From NCBI GenBank assembly GCA_030445865.1, contig JASUSV010000004.1, positions 10,061 to 74,060 of the forward strand: DNA of 64,000 nucleotides. The letters run 5' to 3'. Shown piece after piece: positions 8,526 through 14,536 of the stretch (positions are counted from its first letter, which is position 1; each line of letters starts with the position of its first letter). The notes below the pieces were generated by a model. It was given only the letters and a program-made list of their open reading frames with translations. It was not told the origin of the DNA and ran no database searches. The position numbers and the translations under genes were made by a program. Source of the stretch: Clostridia bacterium. GTDB lineage: Bacteria > Bacillota > DSM-521 > Neomoorellales > Neomoorellaceae.

Positions 8526-8720
8526 GGAAGTGGTGCATTACCTGGAGGCTCTGCTGGAGAGGATGTGCGGACGCAGTCGGGACGGCTTTTGTCTGCGTTC
8601 TGGGGGCACGTCGGGCGGCTCAAGGAAGTAGCGGCCTAACTGATTTTCGGCTGCGGCCTGCGGACAGAACTTATGCCCGTAGCCAGGCGGGCGGCACCAA
8701 TAGCGGGGAGGTCAAGGAAA

Positions 8721-9524
8721 ATGCTGTTGAGCTCCCGGGAGAAGACTATCCTCCTGGTGGAAGATTCGACTTTAACAAGGTTTTCTTCCAGGAGGGTCCT
8801 GGAGGACAGGGGTTATATCGTGGAAGAAGCCTCCGGCGGCGAAGAAGCGCTGGCCAAAGCGAGGCAGAGGGAAGAGCCTTACGACCTGGTAATCATCGAC
8901 ATCTACCTGCCGGGACTGGACGGGCTGGCCCTGCTGGAAAAGCTGAAAGCCACTCCTGAATACCGCTACGTCCCGGTCATGATGTTTACCTCCGAAACAC
9001 GCATGCCGGTGGTAAAGCGGGCTATAGAGCTCGGGGCCGTAGAATACCTCTGCAAACCCTTTACCGCCGAGCAGCTGGTGCACAGGGTAGAAAAACTCAT
9101 AGGCCCCGGGGTCGGGAAAGGGGAGACGCCCATAGCGCTCCTTCACAGGGTGCTGAAGAACGAAGTCAACAGGGCCGTCAGGGGCAACCTCAAGCTTGCG
9201 CTGGTGCTGGCCAGGCGCGAAGGCCTGGAGAAGGGGAAGATAGAAGAACACGGCAGGCGCGTCCAGCACCGGTTGCGCGGTATTGACACTGTGATAGTGC
9301 TGAGCAGCAGCACCCTGGCTGCCGTCCTGCCCCTTACGGGGGCGGAAGGCGCGCAAGTGGTGGCAAAAAAGATGTCTGCCTGGCTGCCGGGTGAATGGAG
9401 CTTCGGAGTTGCGGTCTACCCGGACAACGGGAAGGACGGAGAAGAACTGTTCAACTACGCCGAGAGTTCCCTTAAAGAGAGTTGGAAAAAAGATGGGGAC
9501 AAGGCCCCACCCCAGGACGGCTGA
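8721..9524 (+). CDS. Response regulator: REC domain plus degenerate GGDEF domain (SSSTL replaces GGDEF; RxxD I-site retained)
   Basis: The REC domain shows LLVEDS..DLVIIDIYLPGLDG..K. The C-terminal part aligns to a GGDEF domain: RGID-TVIVL-SSSTLAAVLPLT against the RxxD-x5-GGDEFavlLP pattern. The ATG at 8721 follows GGGGAGG. Confidence 0.8.
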   Translation: MLLSSREKTILLVEDSTLTRFSSRRVLEDRGYIVEEASGGEEALAKARQREEPYDLVIIDIYLPGLDGLALLEKLKATPEYRYVPVMMFTSETRMPVVKRAIELGAVEYLCKPFTAEQLVHRVEKLIGPGVGKGETPIALLHRVLKNEVNRAVRGNLKLALVLARREGLEKGKIEEHGRRVQHRLRGIDTVIVLSSSTLAAVLPLTGAEGAQVVAKKMSAWLPGEWSFGVAVYPDNGKDGEELFNYAESSLKESWKKDGDKAPPQDG

Positions 9525-9610: not shown

Positions 9611-9644
9611 GCGCGGGGTAGCTTAAAGCCCCGCGTATCTTTTG
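9611..9644 (+). terminator. Intrinsic terminator after the response regulator gene
   Basis: CGCGGGG (9612-9618) pairs with CCCCGCG (9629-9635). The stem is followed by TATCTTTT. Confidence 0.55.
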
Positions 9645-9753: not shown

Positions 9754-10632
9754 ATGTCTTTAAAGACCAAGACAGTTCTCACTATATCCACCGTTTTTGC
9801 TTTTCTTGCCCTTGCTTTTTTCGCGGTTTCTCATGTGGTCGCAAATAACATTGCAGCAGAGCTGGAAAGGGATGATATTCACCAGAATATTGAGCGGGCC
9901 CTGCAGGCTCTGGAAAGGGAAATCGTGACGCTGGATAAATTTGCCGAAGATTGGGCCGCATGGGACGACACGTATATATTTGTGGAAGACAGAAACGAGG
10001 AATACATAGAAAAGAACCTGGTCGACAGCACGTTTGAAGTTTTGAGGCTTAATTATGCGGTGTTCATAAACACCAGGGGAGAGATTGTCTACGCCAGAGG
10101 ATATGATCCGGAAGCGGGCGAAGAAATTGCCGTACCTCCAGGCATTGTTGAATATATTTTCAAAAAAGACCCTTTTTCGGTTCAACACGAGGCAGGCGGC
10201 GGCCTTAAAGGGCTGGTAGTAATGCCAGAAGGGCCTGTACTGGTTGCCGCAAGGCCCGTTTTAAAAAGCGACGACAGCGGGCCCGCCCGGGGGACCTTAA
10301 TCTTCGGCCGAATCCTTAGGGACAAGGATTTAAAGGAACTCTCTGAGATCACCCGCCTGCCCCTCTCTTTTCACACGCCGGGAGCCGTAGACTTCCGTGA
10401 CCTGACACCTGCAGGCTTTTTGGAAAACGGGGAGGCGTACTACACCGGGGTTATTTCCCCGCAGGAGAGTGCCGGTTTTGCCGTCATTAAAGACCTTCGG
10501 GGTGAAACCGCCTTAATCCTTCAAGTTAATGCCGAGAGGCGCACTGCCAGAGCGTTCCAGGCTGCAAGAAAGGCCTTCGGCATCTTTCTAGTGCTGGCGG
10601 GGGCCCTGTTCTGCGCACTGGCAGCATTTTGA
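9754..10632 (+). CDS. CHASE4 periplasmic sensor segment with two TM helices; ends at an in-frame TGA and is the N-terminal part of an interrupted gene
   Basis: An N-terminal TM helix, the CHASE4-like DWAAWDDTYIFV region and a second TM helix (GIFLVLAGALFCALAAF) are present. The TGA at 10630-10632 falls exactly where a HAMP domain should begin. Confidence 0.75.
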   Translation: MSLKTKTVLTISTVFAFLALAFFAVSHVVANNIAAELERDDIHQNIERALQALEREIVTLDKFAEDWAAWDDTYIFVEDRNEEYIEKNLVDSTFEVLRLNYAVFINTRGEIVYARGYDPEAGEEIAVPPGIVEYIFKKDPFSVQHEAGGGLKGLVVMPEGPVLVAARPVLKSDDSGPARGTLIFGRILRDKDLKELSEITRLPLSFHTPGAVDFRDLTPAGFLENGEAYYTGVISPQESAGFAVIKDLRGETALILQVNAERRTARAFQAARKAFGIFLVLAGALFCALAAF

Positions 10633-12570
10633 CTGGACAGAATTGTCATATCCCGACTGATAAAGCTGACCGGTGATGTAACAAACACAGGCAATAATTC
10701 CGCCTTTCTCCAAAGGGTTCAAGTTCTGGAGGGAAAGGATGAGCTTGCCCTTCTGTCCGTTGAAATCAACAAAATGTTGGACAGGCTGGAGGAGTACCGG
10801 CAAGAGATACATGAGAGGGAAAAGAAATATAGAGAGGTGGTGGAAAACGCCGCTGAAGCCATTGTTGTGGTCCAGGACGGTGTGGTCAAATTCGTCAACC
10901 GGGCGGCAGCGAAACATACGGGATACGCAGAAGAGGAGCTTATTTCAAACCCTCTTGCCAACTTCATCCACCCGGAAGACAGGAATGCGGTAACGGAACA
11001 TTGCAGGGAGTTGCTTGAAGGCAAGCGTGTCTTATACGCATTTCCGTTCAGGATAATAGCCAGAAACGGGAGTGTCAGGTGGGCGGAAACAAACTCCGTG
11101 GTGTGCGAATGGGAGGGGCGGCCCGCCACTTTAAATTTTCTCACCGATATTACCGCTCGCAAGTTGCTGGAAGAAGAGCTGCAGAGGTTGATGGCAGAAA
11201 AATCGCTAATTCTTGACAGCCTTGCGGAGCTGGTTGTATTTCTGGACCGCGATATGCACATTATCTGGGCCAACCGTGCGGCTGGCGAATCCGTTGGCGC
11301 CAGTCCCGAAGCCCTCTGGGGAGGGAAATGCCACGAAATATGGCACGGGAGGAGTTCTCCCTGCGAGGGCTGTCCGGTCGTCCGGGCCATGGAGACCGGC
11401 CAGGTATGCGCGGGTGAGATGGCCTCCCCGGACGGCCGCTTCTGGCATATAACGGCCTCTCCCGTCAGGGATAAAAACGGAAACGTTGTGGGCGCGGTTG
11501 AAGCAACTCTGGATATCACCGAGCGCAGGCGATACGAGGAACAGCTGAAATACTTAAGCCTGCACGACCTGCTGACGGGCCTTTACAACCGGGCCTTTTT
11601 CCAGGAGGAGCTCAGGCGCTTGTCCTCCAGCCGGGAATACCCGATAACAATACTGGTGGCGGACCTGGACGGCCTGAAACTGGTTAACGACACCCTGGGC
11701 CATGCCAAAGGCGATGAGATGTTAAAGGCCTGCGCGGATGTTTTGAGAACCTCCCTCCGCCGCTCTGATATCCTTGCCCGCATAGGAGGCGACGAATTTG
11801 CCGCCCTTTTGCCCAGAACAGGTGAAAAAACTGGGGAAGATATTGGGTGCCGGATACGCTCCCGTATCTATGGCTACAACAAAGAACACCCCGAGCTGCC
11901 CCTGCACCTGTCCATAGGCTTTGCCACGTGCCAAAGCGAGGATGAATCTCTCGAAGATACCTTTAAGCAGGCCGACGACCTCATGTACCGCCACAAGCTT
12001 GTGCACAGGGCCAGCGCGCGGAACCAGATTGTCGGCGCCCTGCTGGCAGCCTTGAAAGAAAAAGATTACATCACTGCGGGGCATGCTCAGCGGCTGGAGG
12101 AATTGTGCTTAAAAATGGGGGAAAAGATAGGTCTTTCTCCCCGGCAGATGGCCGACCTGGCCCTGCTGGCGCAGGTCCATGACCTGGGCAAAGTTGCCGT
12201 ACCGGACAGCATCTTGTTCAAGAAAGGCCCGCTTACAGAGGAAGAATGGGAGGTCATGCGCCGGCACCCCGAAAAGGGCTACCGCATCGCCCTTTCCTCA
12301 CCCGACCTTGCCGGGGTGGCAGATTTAATTCTCAAGCATCATGAAAGATGGGACGGCAGCGGCTATCCCCTGGGGCTAAAGGGCGAAGAGATACCTGTAG
12401 AATGCCGCATCCTGTCCATTGTCGATGCCTTTGACGCTATGACCAGCGAGCGGCCCTACAGGAAGCCCAAAAGTAAAGAAGGGGCGATCATAGAGCTTAA
12501 AAGGTGTGCGGGAAGCCAGTTTGACCCGCAACTGGTTGATATCTTTGTTTCCATGTTTTCGGCGGCATGA
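10633..12570 (+). CDS. HAMP-PAS-PAS-GGDEF-HD-GYP c-di-GMP turnover protein (C-terminal part of the interrupted gene; first Met at 10774)
   Basis: It is in the same frame as 9754..10632, with no other stop between them. The HAMP-like segment LDRIVISRLIKLTGDV..DELALLSVEINKMLDRLEE is followed by two PAS domains. The GGDEF motif is intact (RIGGDEFAALLP), as is the HD-GYP domain (VHDLGK..HHERWDGSGYP). Confidence 0.8.
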   Translation: MDRIVISRLIKLTGDVTNTGNNSAFLQRVQVLEGKDELALLSVEINKMLDRLEEYRQEIHEREKKYREVVENAAEAIVVVQDGVVKFVNRAAAKHTGYAEEELISNPLANFIHPEDRNAVTEHCRELLEGKRVLYAFPFRIIARNGSVRWAETNSVVCEWEGRPATLNFLTDITARKLLEEELQRLMAEKSLILDSLAELVVFLDRDMHIIWANRAAGESVGASPEALWGGKCHEIWHGRSSPCEGCPVVRAMETGQVCAGEMASPDGRFWHITASPVRDKNGNVVGAVEATLDITERRRYEEQLKYLSLHDLLTGLYNRAFFQEELRRLSSSREYPITILVADLDGLKLVNDTLGHAKGDEMLKACADVLRTSLRRSDILARIGGDEFAALLPRTGEKTGEDIGCRIRSRIYGYNKEHPELPLHLSIGFATCQSEDESLEDTFKQADDLMYRHKLVHRASARNQIVGALLAALKEKDYITAGHAQRLEELCLKMGEKIGLSPRQMADLALLAQVHDLGKVAVPDSILFKKGPLTEEEWEVMRRHPEKGYRIALSSPDLAGVADLILKHHERWDGSGYPLGLKGEEIPVECRILSIVDAFDAMTSERPYRKPKSKEGAIIELKRCAGSQFDPQLVDIFVSMFSAA

Positions 12571-12796
12571 GTGATACTGCACAGCGTGCTACCCAGAGTT
12601 AACCATAATTGACTGCGACCGACTGTTGCGTTACCATAGGACCGTGGAACTTTTATCCATCGGTGAAGCGGCAAAGAAATTAGGTGCGCATCCGAACCGC
12701 TCCGGGCGTGGGGGAAGCAGGGGAACATCGCCGGAATATATTATATATTGCCGGGGTTACTACGGCGTGGTTGTAATGGTAGAATAAGCTGGAGAG

Positions 12797-14536
12797 GTGT
12801 TAGAAGTGGCAGCGCAACGGCGGCGGCTGGGCGATCTCCTTGTCGAGACCGGCCTGCTAACTCCGTCCCAGCTCGAGCGGGCGCTTCAGGAGCAGAAAAG
12901 GACCGGCGAGAGGCTGGGTAAAATTTTAGTTCGCCTGGGATTTTTAAGCGAGAGAGACATCCTGGAGGCCCTGGAATTTCAGCTGGGAATTCCCAAGGTG
13001 AACCTGGAAGACTACCGCCTGGACCCGGAAGTAGTGGGCTTAATACCGGAAGAGCTGGCCCGGCGGCATATGGCCGTTCCTGTAAAGAAAGACGGTAATC
13101 GGCTTTTAGTGGCTATGGCCGATCCCCTTAACCTTCTGGCCATCGATGACCTGCGCCTGGCCACCCGCATGGAAATCCTGCCGGCCATAGCCACCGAAAA
13201 GGAGATCCAGGCAGCCCTCTCCATTTACCAGCAGAACCGGGCCAAGCAGGCAAAATGGGCCCAACTGGCAGATCTGGCCGAAACGGCCGCCGGCCTCGCC
13301 GCCGAAGCCGCGGCCGGGGCGCCTTCGCGGGAGATATTTAATTTGGACGGGGCAGGCGCCGCCAGCTCAGACGGCGCGCCTGTAGTGCGGCTGGTAAATA
13401 ACCTTATCGCCCAGGCCGTGCAGGTTAAGGCCAGCGATATCCACTTGGAGCCCCAGGGCGAAAGGATCCGCGTTCGCTTCCGGGTTGATGGACTGCTGCG
13501 CGAGGTGGCCCAGCTTCCCTTAAGCGCTTTGAGCAGCCTCGTCTCCCGCATCAAGATCATGGGCGGTATGGATATTGCCGAAAAAAGGCTGCCTCAAGAC
13601 GGCCGCTTCCAGGTGACGCTGGAAGGCCGTAACATCGACCTGCGCGTTTCTACCCTGCCGGCCGTTTACGGCGAGAAGGTGGTTTTACGCATCCTCGATA
13701 AGGAGGCCATGATGATCCCTTTGGAAGGCCTAGGCTTTTTGCCTTCCCTCCGCGAGCGCTATGAGGCCTTAATCCGGAGCACTTACGGCATGATCCTTAT
13801 TACCGGGCCTACCGGTAGCGGCAAGACGACGACCCTTTACGCCACCCTCAAGGCTTTAAACACCCCGGAAAAGAATATCGTTACTATCGAGGACCCGGTA
13901 GAATACCTGCTGGAAGGCATAAATCAGGTGCGGGTTAACCCTAAAGCAGGGTTGGATTTCGCTTCCGGCCTGCGCTCCATTTTGCGCCAGGACCCGGACA
14001 TTATCATGGTCGGTGAAATCCGCGACCGGGAGACGGCCGACATTGCCGTCCGCGCCGCCACTACCGGCCATCTCGTTTTAAGTACCCTGCATACCAATGA
14101 TGCCGCCGGTGCGGTGACCAGGCTGGTTGATATGGGAGTGGAGCCCTTTCTAGTAAATTCATCTTTAATTGGGGTCGTGGCCCAGCGGCTGGTGCGGCTG
14201 ATTTGCCCCCACTGTAAGGAAGAGTATCTGCCTGCCCCCGGGACGCCGGAATACGCTTATTTGCAGGGCGAGGGCGAAATTACCTCCCTGTATCGCGGTC
14301 GCGGCTGCCCGGCCTGCAACTACACGGGTTATCGGGGGCGGACGGCCATCCAGGAGGTGCTGGTTATGACCGAGAGACTTCGCTCCCTCGTCTCTGCCAA
14401 AGAGCCTTCAGTAATCATTCGTAAGGCGGCTATAGAAGAGGGCATGATTCCCCTGCACCGCGACGGGTTATATAAAGCCAGGCAGGGTTTGACCACGGTG
14501 AGCGAAGTAATGCGCGTTGCCCTGGGCGGTTTTTAA
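12797..14536 (+). CDS. pilB: Type IV pilus assembly ATPase PilB/GspE with N-terminal MshEN domain
   Basis: Walker A GPTGSGKTT, a tetracysteine site (CPHC..CPAC) and two N-terminal RLGxxLVxxG(L/F)Lxxxx(L/I)xxxLxxQ motifs are present. Confidence 0.92.
   Translation: MLEVAAQRRRLGDLLVETGLLTPSQLERALQEQKRTGERLGKILVRLGFLSERDILEALEFQLGIPKVNLEDYRLDPEVVGLIPEELARRHMAVPVKKDGNRLLVAMADPLNLLAIDDLRLATRMEILPAIATEKEIQAALSIYQQNRAKQAKWAQLADLAETAAGLAAEAAAGAPSREIFNLDGAGAASSDGAPVVRLVNNLIAQAVQVKASDIHLEPQGERIRVRFRVDGLLREVAQLPLSALSSLVSRIKIMGGMDIAEKRLPQDGRFQVTLEGRNIDLRVSTLPAVYGEKVVLRILDKEAMMIPLEGLGFLPSLRERYEALIRSTYGMILITGPTGSGKTTTLYATLKALNTPEKNIVTIEDPVEYLLEGINQVRVNPKAGLDFASGLRSILRQDPDIIMVGEIRDRETADIAVRAATTGHLVLSTLHTNDAAGAVTRLVDMGVEPFLVNSSLIGVVAQRLVRLICPHCKEEYLPAPGTPEYAYLQGEGEITSLYRGRGCPACNYTGYRGRTAIQEVLVMTERLRSLVSAKEPSVIIRKAAIEEGMIPLHRDGLYKARQGLTTVSEVMRVALGGF

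What the first reader, a model, noticed from the sequence alone, without database searches (positions are those of the whole stretch)
10621..10640. Single in-frame TGA splits a CHASE4-TM-HAMP-PAS-PAS-GGDEF-HD-GYP gene exactly at the TM/HAMP boundary
Seen:
- ORFs 9754..10632 and 10774..12570 are in the same frame.
- Codons 10633-10773 contain no stop and encode a textbook HAMP segment (LDRIVISRLIKLTGDV...DELALLSVEINKMLDRLEE).
- The only interruption is the TGA at 10630-10632 (..AAF*LDR..).

Inference, three possibilities:
1. A real nonsense mutation (TGG Trp to TGA is one step). This would uncouple the periplasmic sensor from a cytoplasmic GGDEF/HD-GYP protein restarted at Met 10774.
2. A sequencing error.
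3. Stop-codon readthrough.

In the first case, c-di-GMP output feeding the adjacent pilus locus would become signal-blind.
Basis: seen in the sequence. Interest (0 to 1): 0.6.

Follow-up and report, generated by a model that had tools for sequence, protein, structure and literature searches.

The report
Recent nonsense mutation in c-di-GMP sensor gene
A real and evolutionarily recent one-base change (TGG tryptophan to TGA stop) cuts a membrane sensor/c-di-GMP enzyme gene of an uncultured Moorella-family bacterium between its sensor and its enzyme half; this is an ordinary fresh loss-of-function allele, not recoding or a sequencing error.

Summary
TGA at 10630-10632 is the only interruption of a 938-codon CHASE4-TM-HAMP-like-PAS-PAS-GGDEF-HD-GYP frame.

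- **Origin:** All six intact orthologous loci read TGG here. Trp is present in 11 of 12 aligned orthologous proteins. The stop is therefore a one-step TGG>TGA change.
- **Not a random error:** The same TGA stands in separate per-run assemblies of three sequencing runs (SRR23823869, -70, -71).
- **Not recoding:**
  - TGA ends 23% of the long ORFs in this genome.
  - tRNA-Trp is an ordinary CCA tRNA.
  - No SECIS or Rfam recoding element follows the stop.
  - Orthologs have Trp, not Cys.
- **Recent:** Neither half shows decay. At sites invariant in the other orthologs there are 1 (sensor), 0 (linker) and 3 (enzyme half) private substitutions. All catalytic motifs are intact.
- **Likely consequence (inferred):**
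  - The main product is a 32-kDa TM1-CHASE4-TM2 stub.
  - Full-length protein would arise only by rare near-cognate Trp readthrough of UGA-C, which would restore the native residue.
  - The 598-aa restart at Met 10774 has no Shine-Dalgarno (SD) or promoter-like signal, so its expression is uncertain.
- **Parallel case:** Moorella thermoacetica has destroyed the sensor half (five disabling lesions) yet keeps the enzyme half intact from the same Met.

The link to the adjacent pilus locus is not conserved in relatives.

The parts
9611..9636 (+). Terminator-like hairpin with a T-run after the upstream response-regulator gene. It suggests the sensor gene starts its own transcript.
   Evidence: consensus scan only
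9754..10632 (+). 5' ORF of 292 codons plus the TGA. It encodes TM1 (about 9772-9846), CHASE4 (9907-10374) and TM2 (about 10564-10632), giving a predicted 32.2-kDa membrane stub.
10630..10632 (+). In-frame TGA at the codon that is TGG (Trp) in all intact orthologous loci. The next base is C (UGA-C).
   Evidence: the same TGA in three per-run assemblies
10633..10773 (+). 47 codons free of stops and start codons, encoding the HAMP-like linker (helix 1, Gly connector, most of helix 2). Conserved at the protein level.
10774..12570 (+). 3' ORF of 598 codons, starting at a conserved Met inside HAMP helix 2. Predicted mass 67.2 kDa. It encodes PAS1 (10825-11157), PAS2 (11212-11532), GGDEF (11560-12006) and HD-GYP (12058-12534). 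The RxxD-GGDEF motif lies at 11758-11799, HD at 12178-12183 and HHERWDGSGYP at 12337-12369.
8673..9524 (+). Upstream neighbour: a response-regulator receiver protein (context only).
12797..14536 (+). Downstream neighbour: a PilB-type ATPase with an MshEN domain, first gene of a type IV pilus locus (PilT, PilC, pilins, prepilin peptidase follow). A promoter-like site lies at 12609-12637.

Best explanation
**Shown**
- The TGA is a genuine TGG(Trp)>TGA nonsense allele.
- It is the consensus base in three separate read sets of this population.
- It lies in an otherwise perfectly preserved CHASE4-TM-HAMP-like-PAS-PAS-GGDEF-HD-GYP gene of an uncultured Moorella-family bacterium that uses the standard code.
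- It is evolutionarily very recent: neither half has accumulated any sign of decay.

**Inferred mechanism**
- Release factor 2 stops most ribosomes at the cytoplasmic end of TM2. The main product is then a 32-kDa TM1-CHASE4-TM2 stub with no output domain.
- The sensor-coupled enzyme is lost, or reduced to the small fraction made when tRNA-Trp(CCA) misreads UGA-C. That misreading would put back the native Trp and give wild-type protein at perhaps 0.1 to a few percent.
- The cytoplasmic PAS-PAS-GGDEF-HD-GYP half could be translated on its own from Met 10774. It has no SD or promoter-like signal, so I take its expression to be weak or uncertain.

Overall this is a fresh loss-of-function or strongly hypomorphic allele, the first step of the sensor loss already completed in Moorella thermoacetica.
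For: **The stop replaces a conserved Trp codon**
- Six intact orthologous loci read TTC TGG CTG GAC where the window reads TTT TGA CTG GAC.
- Trp is present in 11 of 12 aligned orthologous proteins.

**The stop is reproducible**
- The exact 292-aa product and the TGA stand in Logan per-run contigs of SRR23823869, SRR23823870 and SRR23823871.
- One of these contigs is 100% identical to the window over 4962 nt.

**The genome uses the standard code**
- TGA ends 206 of 897 long ORFs.
- The only tRNA-Trp has anticodon CCA and a normal anticodon stem.

**The mutation is recent**
- The ratio of sensor-half to enzyme-half identity to orthologs is 0.84-0.92, the same as between intact pairs.
- Private substitutions at sites invariant in the other 10 orthologs number only 1, 0 and 3 in the sensor half, linker and enzyme half.
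- The GGDEF, I-site, HD and GYP motifs are intact.

**Readthrough chemistry**
- TGA is the leakiest stop codon and is replaced almost always by Trp (PMC11126739; PMC7918605).
- TGA-C is the rarest TGA context at true gene ends in this genome, 31 of 206.

**Precedent in M. thermoacetica**
- The first 293 codons carry 4 frameshifting indels and 1 nonsense codon. The remaining 646 codons carry none.
- The ORF starts at the same Met.
- The lesions are shared by three assemblies.
Against: - A minority TGG allele, or a systematic error shared by the three runs (consecutive accessions, probably one study), is not formally excluded.
- No expression data exist, so the amounts of stub, readthrough product and restart product are all inferred.
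- The complete absence of decay also fits continued selection on the gene, through readthrough or as two useful pieces, rather than mere recency.
- The intact enzyme half in M. thermoacetica hints that the C-terminal ORF can be expressed without obvious signals. That would make 'weak expression' wrong.
Confidence: 0.75

Rival explanations
1. Adaptive uncoupling. The stop is selected because it frees a soluble PAS-PAS-GGDEF-HD-GYP enzyme, translated from the conserved HAMP Met 10774, from control by the CHASE4 sensor. The split is then a functional two-product arrangement rather than a defect.
For: - M. thermoacetica keeps a 599/610-aa ORF from exactly this Met while its sensor half carries five disabling lesions. 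The chance that all five fall in the first 31% of the gene is about 0.003.
- pN/pS between two strains is 0.13 over that ORF.
- Stand-alone proteins with the same cytoplasmic architecture exist in relatives, for example 595 aa in G001.
- All catalytic motifs are intact in the window.
Against: - There is no SD-like 4-mer within 18 nt of ATG 10774, and no promoter-like site on the + strand inside the gene.
- The strain SNPs behind pN/pS 0.13 cluster in the last 950 nt, so they may have been imported by recombination from an intact gene.
- dN/dS between G011 and intact G014 is the same in the sensor half (0.30) and the enzyme half (0.27). The decay there is also recent, so retention is weakly tested.
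- With five or more lesions in 293 codons, one falling within 2 codons of the Trp has about 8% chance. The shared break point is therefore not significant.
Confidence: 0.2
2. Sequencing or assembly error: the true base is G (TGG).
For: - The genome is a 90-contig metagenome-type assembly.
- The three supporting runs have consecutive accessions and may share library or platform biases.
- Contigs drop rare variants.
Against: - Three separately assembled runs give the same TGA with identical flanks.
- One contig shows 0 mismatches in 4962 nt against the window.
- The site is not in a homopolymer longer than 4 bases.
- No contig breaks at the site.
Confidence: 0.03
3. Programmed recoding: selenocysteine insertion, reassignment of UGA, or a dedicated high-efficiency readthrough signal.
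For: - The genome has a tRNA-Sec(TCA).
- The base after the stop is C, a weak termination context.
- The frame after the stop is open and conserved.
Against: - Orthologs have Trp, not Cys or Sec, and none has a stop here.
- The downstream fold is no better than shuffled sequence, z = -1.0.
- No SECIS or other Rfam element is found at E up to 10.
- TGA is a regular stop in this genome.
- tRNA-Trp is ordinary.
Confidence: 0.02

Closest known systems
In-frame stop codons in otherwise intact prokaryotic genes (Belinky et al. 2021, PMC7918605)
   Same: A single in-frame stop with no other sign of pseudogenisation. TGA is described there as leaky and decoded as Trp. Such stops are said to be mostly short-lived.
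   Different: Here the stop replaces a Trp codon, so a leak would restore the wild-type protein. It also falls exactly between the sensor/membrane half and the enzyme half of a signalling protein.
Moorella thermoacetica 599/610-aa 'RpfG' HD-GYP proteins (OIQ60561.1, OIQ08068.1/WP_081358729.1)
   Same: Orthologous gene, about 70% identical. The ORF starts at the same HAMP Met. The sensor half is disabled, with one lesion within two codons of the same Trp.
   Different: There the sensor half carries four frameshifting indels, one nonsense codon and a W70R change. The window has one stop and nothing else.
Pseudomonas aeruginosa PA2072, CHASE4-GGDEF-EAL receptor of extracellular ATP (PMC12625894)
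   Same: A periplasmic CHASE4 sensor between two TM helices that controls cytoplasmic c-di-GMP domains.
   Different: PA2072 has an EAL domain rather than HD-GYP and belongs to a different phylum. No ligand can be inferred for the window's CHASE4. The comparison rests on domain architecture only.
Near-cognate UGA readthrough by tRNA-Trp in bacteria (PMC11126739)
   Same: UGA is the most error-prone stop and is replaced almost always by Trp, at rates up to a few percent in E. coli reporters.
   Different: Not measured in this organism or in any thermophilic Clostridia. The paper's context rules (G after the stop raises readthrough, T lowers it) say nothing specific about C.

Membership tests
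Nonsense-interrupted gene (incipient pseudogene or loss-of-function allele) | The in-frame stop lies at a codon that is sense in orthologs | tested here: met
   TGG in 6 of 6 intact orthologous loci. Trp in 11 of 12 aligned orthologous proteins.
Nonsense-interrupted gene (incipient pseudogene or loss-of-function allele) | The stop is reproducible in independent sequence data | tested here: met
   Per-run contigs of SRR23823869, -70 and -71 all carry TGA. Raw-read pileup was not possible.
Nonsense-interrupted gene (incipient pseudogene or loss-of-function allele) | Further degenerative changes are present (old pseudogene) | tested here: not met
   Only 1, 0 and 3 private changes at otherwise invariant sites. 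Sensor-to-enzyme identity ratio is normal. The event is therefore recent.
Selenoprotein (UGA = Sec) | Cys or Sec at the homologous position in relatives | tested here: not met
   Trp in orthologs.
Selenoprotein (UGA = Sec) | SECIS hairpin just downstream of the UGA | tested here: not met
   Fold z-score -1.0. No Rfam SECIS match at E up to 10.
Selenoprotein (UGA = Sec) | Sec machinery present in the genome | tested here: met
   tRNA-SeC(TCA) found. SelA and SelB were not searched.
UGA reassigned to Trp (codes 4/25, or superwobble tRNA-Trp) | TGA is not used as a stop; tRNA-Trp has a UCA anticodon or a 4-bp anticodon stem | tested here: not met
   TGA ends 206 of 897 long ORFs. The single tRNA-Trp has anticodon CCA and a normal stem.
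Programmed stop-codon readthrough | The stop is conserved among relatives and followed by a stimulatory element | tested here: not met
   No relative has a stop here. No significant structure follows it.
Naturally split two-gene arrangement | The downstream gene has its own start with a ribosome-binding site, and orthologs are split in the same way | tested here: not met
   No SD-like 4-mer in -18..-4 of ATG 10774. Orthologs are single ORFs of 925-953 aa. The M. thermoacetica 'split' is a decayed gene.
CHASE4-sensor c-di-GMP enzyme (GGDEF + HD-GYP) | CHASE4 domain flanked by two TM helices | tested here: met
   PF05228 E 1e-41, full profile matched. Hydrophobic segments at residues 7-31 and 271-299.
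CHASE4-sensor c-di-GMP enzyme (GGDEF + HD-GYP) | GGDEF and HD-GYP domains with catalytic motifs | tested here: met
   PF00990 E 7e-37 and PF13487 E 1e-39. RRSD-x5-GGDEF, HD and HHERWDGSGYP motifs present. Enzyme activity was not testable.
HAMP domain | Match to the HAMP profile above the curated threshold | tested here: inconclusive
   The window scores 17.5-22.3 bits against a cutoff of 25, matching helix 2 only. All 11 ortholog linkers hit HAMP alone, best E 6e-7. The linker profile finds no PDB HAMP chain.

The most novel reading that the evidence does not exclude
Shedding of the CHASE4/TM sensor at the TM2-HAMP boundary is a recurrent, selected route in Moorella-family bacteria. It would convert a ligand-gated membrane c-di-GMP enzyme into a soluble, PAS-controlled one translated from the conserved HAMP methionine without a canonical ribosome-binding site. 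The window would catch the first mutational step, with Trp readthrough of UGA-C giving a transitional mixture of both forms. M. thermoacetica would show the end state.
Probability: 0.15. Interest if true: 0.45.

Novelty: new member of a known kind. Interest (0 to 1): 0.22.

Why it matters
- **For annotation:** The two ORFs should be recorded as one gene with an authentic internal stop. They should not be listed as two genes, a selenoprotein or an assembly error.
- **Biologically:** This is a small, clean example of how multidomain signalling genes come apart.
  - The same gene family shows a fresh nonsense allele here.
  - It shows a fully decayed sensor half with a preserved enzyme half in M. 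thermoacetica.
  - It shows loss of the HD-GYP end in other Moorella species.
- **A neat property of the mutation:** TGG>TGA is the one nonsense change whose natural leak restores the wild-type residue. Such alleles may behave as strong knock-downs rather than nulls.
- **Limits:** None of this is surprising to a specialist, and no open question becomes testable through it.

Tried and rejected
- **Read pileup:** Per-run Logan contigs served as a substitute.
- **Allele scans:** An exact-pattern scan for either allele (TGR with 10-12 nt flanks) found 0 hits in metagenome contigs and in genome contigs.
- **Wild-type allele look-up:** The exact full-length Trp-allele protein and the 598-aa product are not on record. 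This is uninformative, because the per-run contigs end inside the gene.
- **Selenocysteine:** Rejected on Trp in orthologs, no SECIS fold and no Rfam hit.
- **Code reassignment or special tRNA-Trp:** Rejected.
- **Genome-wide screen for other single-stop splits:**
  - The screen looked for same-frame ORF pairs with at least 25 start-less codons between them and found 12 candidates.
  - It cannot tell splits from ordinary spacers.
  - The one TGA candidate checked (contig C22) is methylmalonyl-CoA mutase next to MeaB, not a split gene or selenoprotein.
- **HAMP by PDB profile search:** No HAMP chain found.
- **Synteny as support for a pilus link:** Rejected, because the neighbours differ in G010, G006, G027, G016 and G011.
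- **Literature search for the SRR accessions:** Nothing found.
- **dN/dS in M. thermoacetica as proof of selection on the enzyme half:** Weakened by SNP clustering and by equal dN/dS in both halves against G014.
Full report
**1. Observation**

The sequence at 10621-10640 reads GCA GCA TTT TGA CTG GAC AGA.
- ORF 9754..10632 (292 aa) and ORF 10774..12570 (598 aa) share a frame.
- Translating 9754-12570 gives one stop..ALAAF*LDRIV...
- The 47 codons after the stop contain no stop and no ATG, GTG or TTG.

Pfam finds these domains in the read-through protein:
- CHASE4, residues 52-207, E 1e-41, full profile
- two PAS domains
- GGDEF, E 7e-37
- HD_5/HD-GYP, E 1e-39

Hydrophobic segments lie at residues 7-31 and 271-299. 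The stop is therefore at the cytoplasmic end of TM2.

- The window's own segment scores 17.5-22.3 bits against a cutoff of 25 and matches helix 2 only.
- A profile of the linker finds no HAMP chain in the PDB.
- All 11 ortholog linkers nevertheless hit HAMP and nothing else, best E 6e-7.
- I call it a divergent, HAMP-like linker.

**2. What the codon was**

The window lies in a 2.08-Mb, 90-contig genome with completeness 100 and contamination 0.8. Its family-level relatives include Moorella/Neomoorella species.

Uninterrupted orthologs of 925-953 aa exist in G010, G006, G027 and many metagenomes.
- In a DNA alignment, all six intact loci read TTC TGG CTG GAC where the window reads TTT TGA CTG GAC.
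- In a 13-protein alignment, Trp is present in 11 of the 12 orthologs.
- The stop is therefore a single G>A transition of a conserved Trp codon.

**3. Real or error?**

I did not use read laying, which needs ids from that tool.

As a substitute I used an exact look-up of the 292-aa product.
- It is encoded on separately assembled contigs of three runs: SRR23823869 (20.4 kb), SRR23823871 (7.3 kb) and SRR23823870 (2.7 kb).
- All three show TGA with identical flanks.
- The 7.3-kb contig is identical to the window at all 4962 compared bases.

A random error is thus very unlikely. A systematic error shared by three runs of what is probably one study, or a minority TGG allele, cannot be excluded. 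No copy of either allele was found in the JGI metagenome or GTDB genome collections. The full-length Trp-allele protein is not on record.

**4. Recoding?**

- TGA ends 206 of 897 long ORFs in this genome.
- The only tRNA-Trp has anticodon CCA and an ordinary anticodon stem.
- A tRNA-Sec exists, but orthologs have Trp rather than Cys.
- The RNA after the stop folds no better than shuffled sequence, z = -1.0.
- Rfam finds no SECIS or other element at E up to 10.
- No relative carries a stop at this codon.

Selenocysteine, code reassignment and programmed readthrough are rejected.

**5. Age**

- The ratio of sensor-half to enzyme-half identity between the window protein and its orthologs is 0.84-0.92. 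Intact pairs at similar divergence show the same range.
- At sites invariant in the ten other close orthologs, the window protein has 1 private change in the sensor half (L277I), 0 in the linker and 3 in the enzyme half. All are conservative.
- The RxxD I-site, GGDEF, HD and HHERWDGSGYP motifs are intact.

The stop is the only defect. Either it is very recent or the gene is still under selection.

**6. Likely consequences (inferred)**

The main product should be a 32.2-kDa TM1-CHASE4-TM2 stub.

Readthrough:
- UGA is the leakiest stop and is replaced almost always by Trp in E. coli reporters and proteomes (PMC11126739).
- TGA is described as leaky and Trp-decoded in E. coli, Salmonella and B. 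subtilis (PMC7918605).
- Here a leak would restore the native residue and give wild-type 104.8-kDa protein at a low level.
- C after TGA is the rarest context at real gene ends in this genome, 31 of 206. This is consistent with C being a poor termination context; that reading rests on my own knowledge of E. coli work and was not tested.

Restart at Met 10774:
- The Met is a conserved residue of HAMP helix 2.
- No SD-like 4-mer lies within 18 nt upstream, and no + strand promoter-like site lies inside the gene.
- Expression of the 67.2-kDa fragment is therefore uncertain.

**7. A parallel case**

In G011 (Moorella thermoacetica), the annotated 599-aa 'RpfG' (OIQ60561.1) starts at the same Met.

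Upstream, compared with the intact G014 gene, the first 293 codons carry:
- deletions of 4, 1, 1 and 5 nt, the last immediately before the same Trp codon
- a CAA>TAA nonsense codon
- a W70R change

The following 646 codons carry no disabling lesion. If lesions fell evenly along the gene, the chance that all five would lie in the first 31% is about 0.003.

The lesions are shared by a second strain (GCA_001874065.1, 610-aa product) and by an ENA assembly.

Evidence on selection is mixed.
- pN/pS between the two strains over the retained ORF is 0.13, from 17 synonymous and 7 nonsynonymous codon differences.
- The SNPs cluster in the last 950 nt, so recombination from an intact gene may explain them.
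- dN/dS against G014 is alike in both halves, 0.30 and 0.27.

The case shows that the enzyme half can outlast the sensor half. It does not prove that the enzyme half works alone. With five lesions in 293 codons, one landing within two codons of the Trp has about 8% chance, so the shared break point is not significant.

Other Moorella species (G014, G016, G021; P0008) instead lack the HD-GYP end. Domain loss is therefore common in this gene family.

**8. Context**

- Downstream lies a type IV pilus locus: PilB with an MshEN domain, PilT, PilC, pilins, a prepilin peptidase and PilX.
- Upstream lies a receiver-domain protein.
- The orthologs in G010, G006, G027, G016 and G011 have unrelated neighbours: HepT, ABC transporters, FdhD, Uma2 and others.
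- The genome has about 17 further loci matching the GGDEF/HD-GYP part.

The idea that this enzyme specifically feeds the pilus locus rests on adjacency in one genome plus the MshEN domain. It is possible but not supported by comparison.

**9. Verdict**

This is a genuine, recent TGG>TGA nonsense allele in a well-conserved sensor/c-di-GMP enzyme gene. It is an ordinary kind of event and is cleanly documented. The most interesting open possibility is that sensor shedding at this boundary is recurrent and useful in this family. I give that about 15%.

Noticed in passing
L015 1489-4262 (-), L028 1480-4340 (+), L027: The Moorella thermoacetica ortholog has a sensor half destroyed by four frameshifting deletions, one nonsense codon and W70R. 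Its 599/610-aa enzyme half is intact from the same Met and is annotated as 'RpfG'. The lesions are shared by three assemblies.
   Followed up: yes
L012, L013, L014 (G014, G016, G021); P0008: Orthologs in other Moorella species are about 783-839 aa. They end just after the GGDEF domain and lack HD-GYP. A separate GGDEF-HD-GYP gene (35% identical) lies about 2 kb away.
   Followed up: partly
window 10727-10993: A strong SD-like GGAGGG lies 6 nt before an out-of-frame ATG at 10739 (84-codon ORF) inside the linker. The motif encodes the conserved LEGKDE, so it is probably incidental. It could still capture ribosomes after the stop.
   Followed up: no
window about 11240 and 11715: The per-run contigs end inside the gene: two at window 11715 and one at about 11240, in the PAS2/GGDEF region. 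This suggests graph branching from strain variants or paralogous GGDEF sequence. None breaks at the TGA.
   Followed up: no
window 12797-14533: The PilB-type ATPase carries an MshEN domain (PF05157, E 8e-24), a known c-di-GMP-binding module. It has a promoter-like site of its own at 12609-12637.
   Followed up: partly
P0006 versus G010: The closest named homologue (79% identity) is from Desulfofundulus salinus. This is closer than the orthologs in same-family genomes (66-76%), and the gene's neighbourhood differs in every genome examined. Both points hint at horizontal movement of this gene.
   Followed up: no
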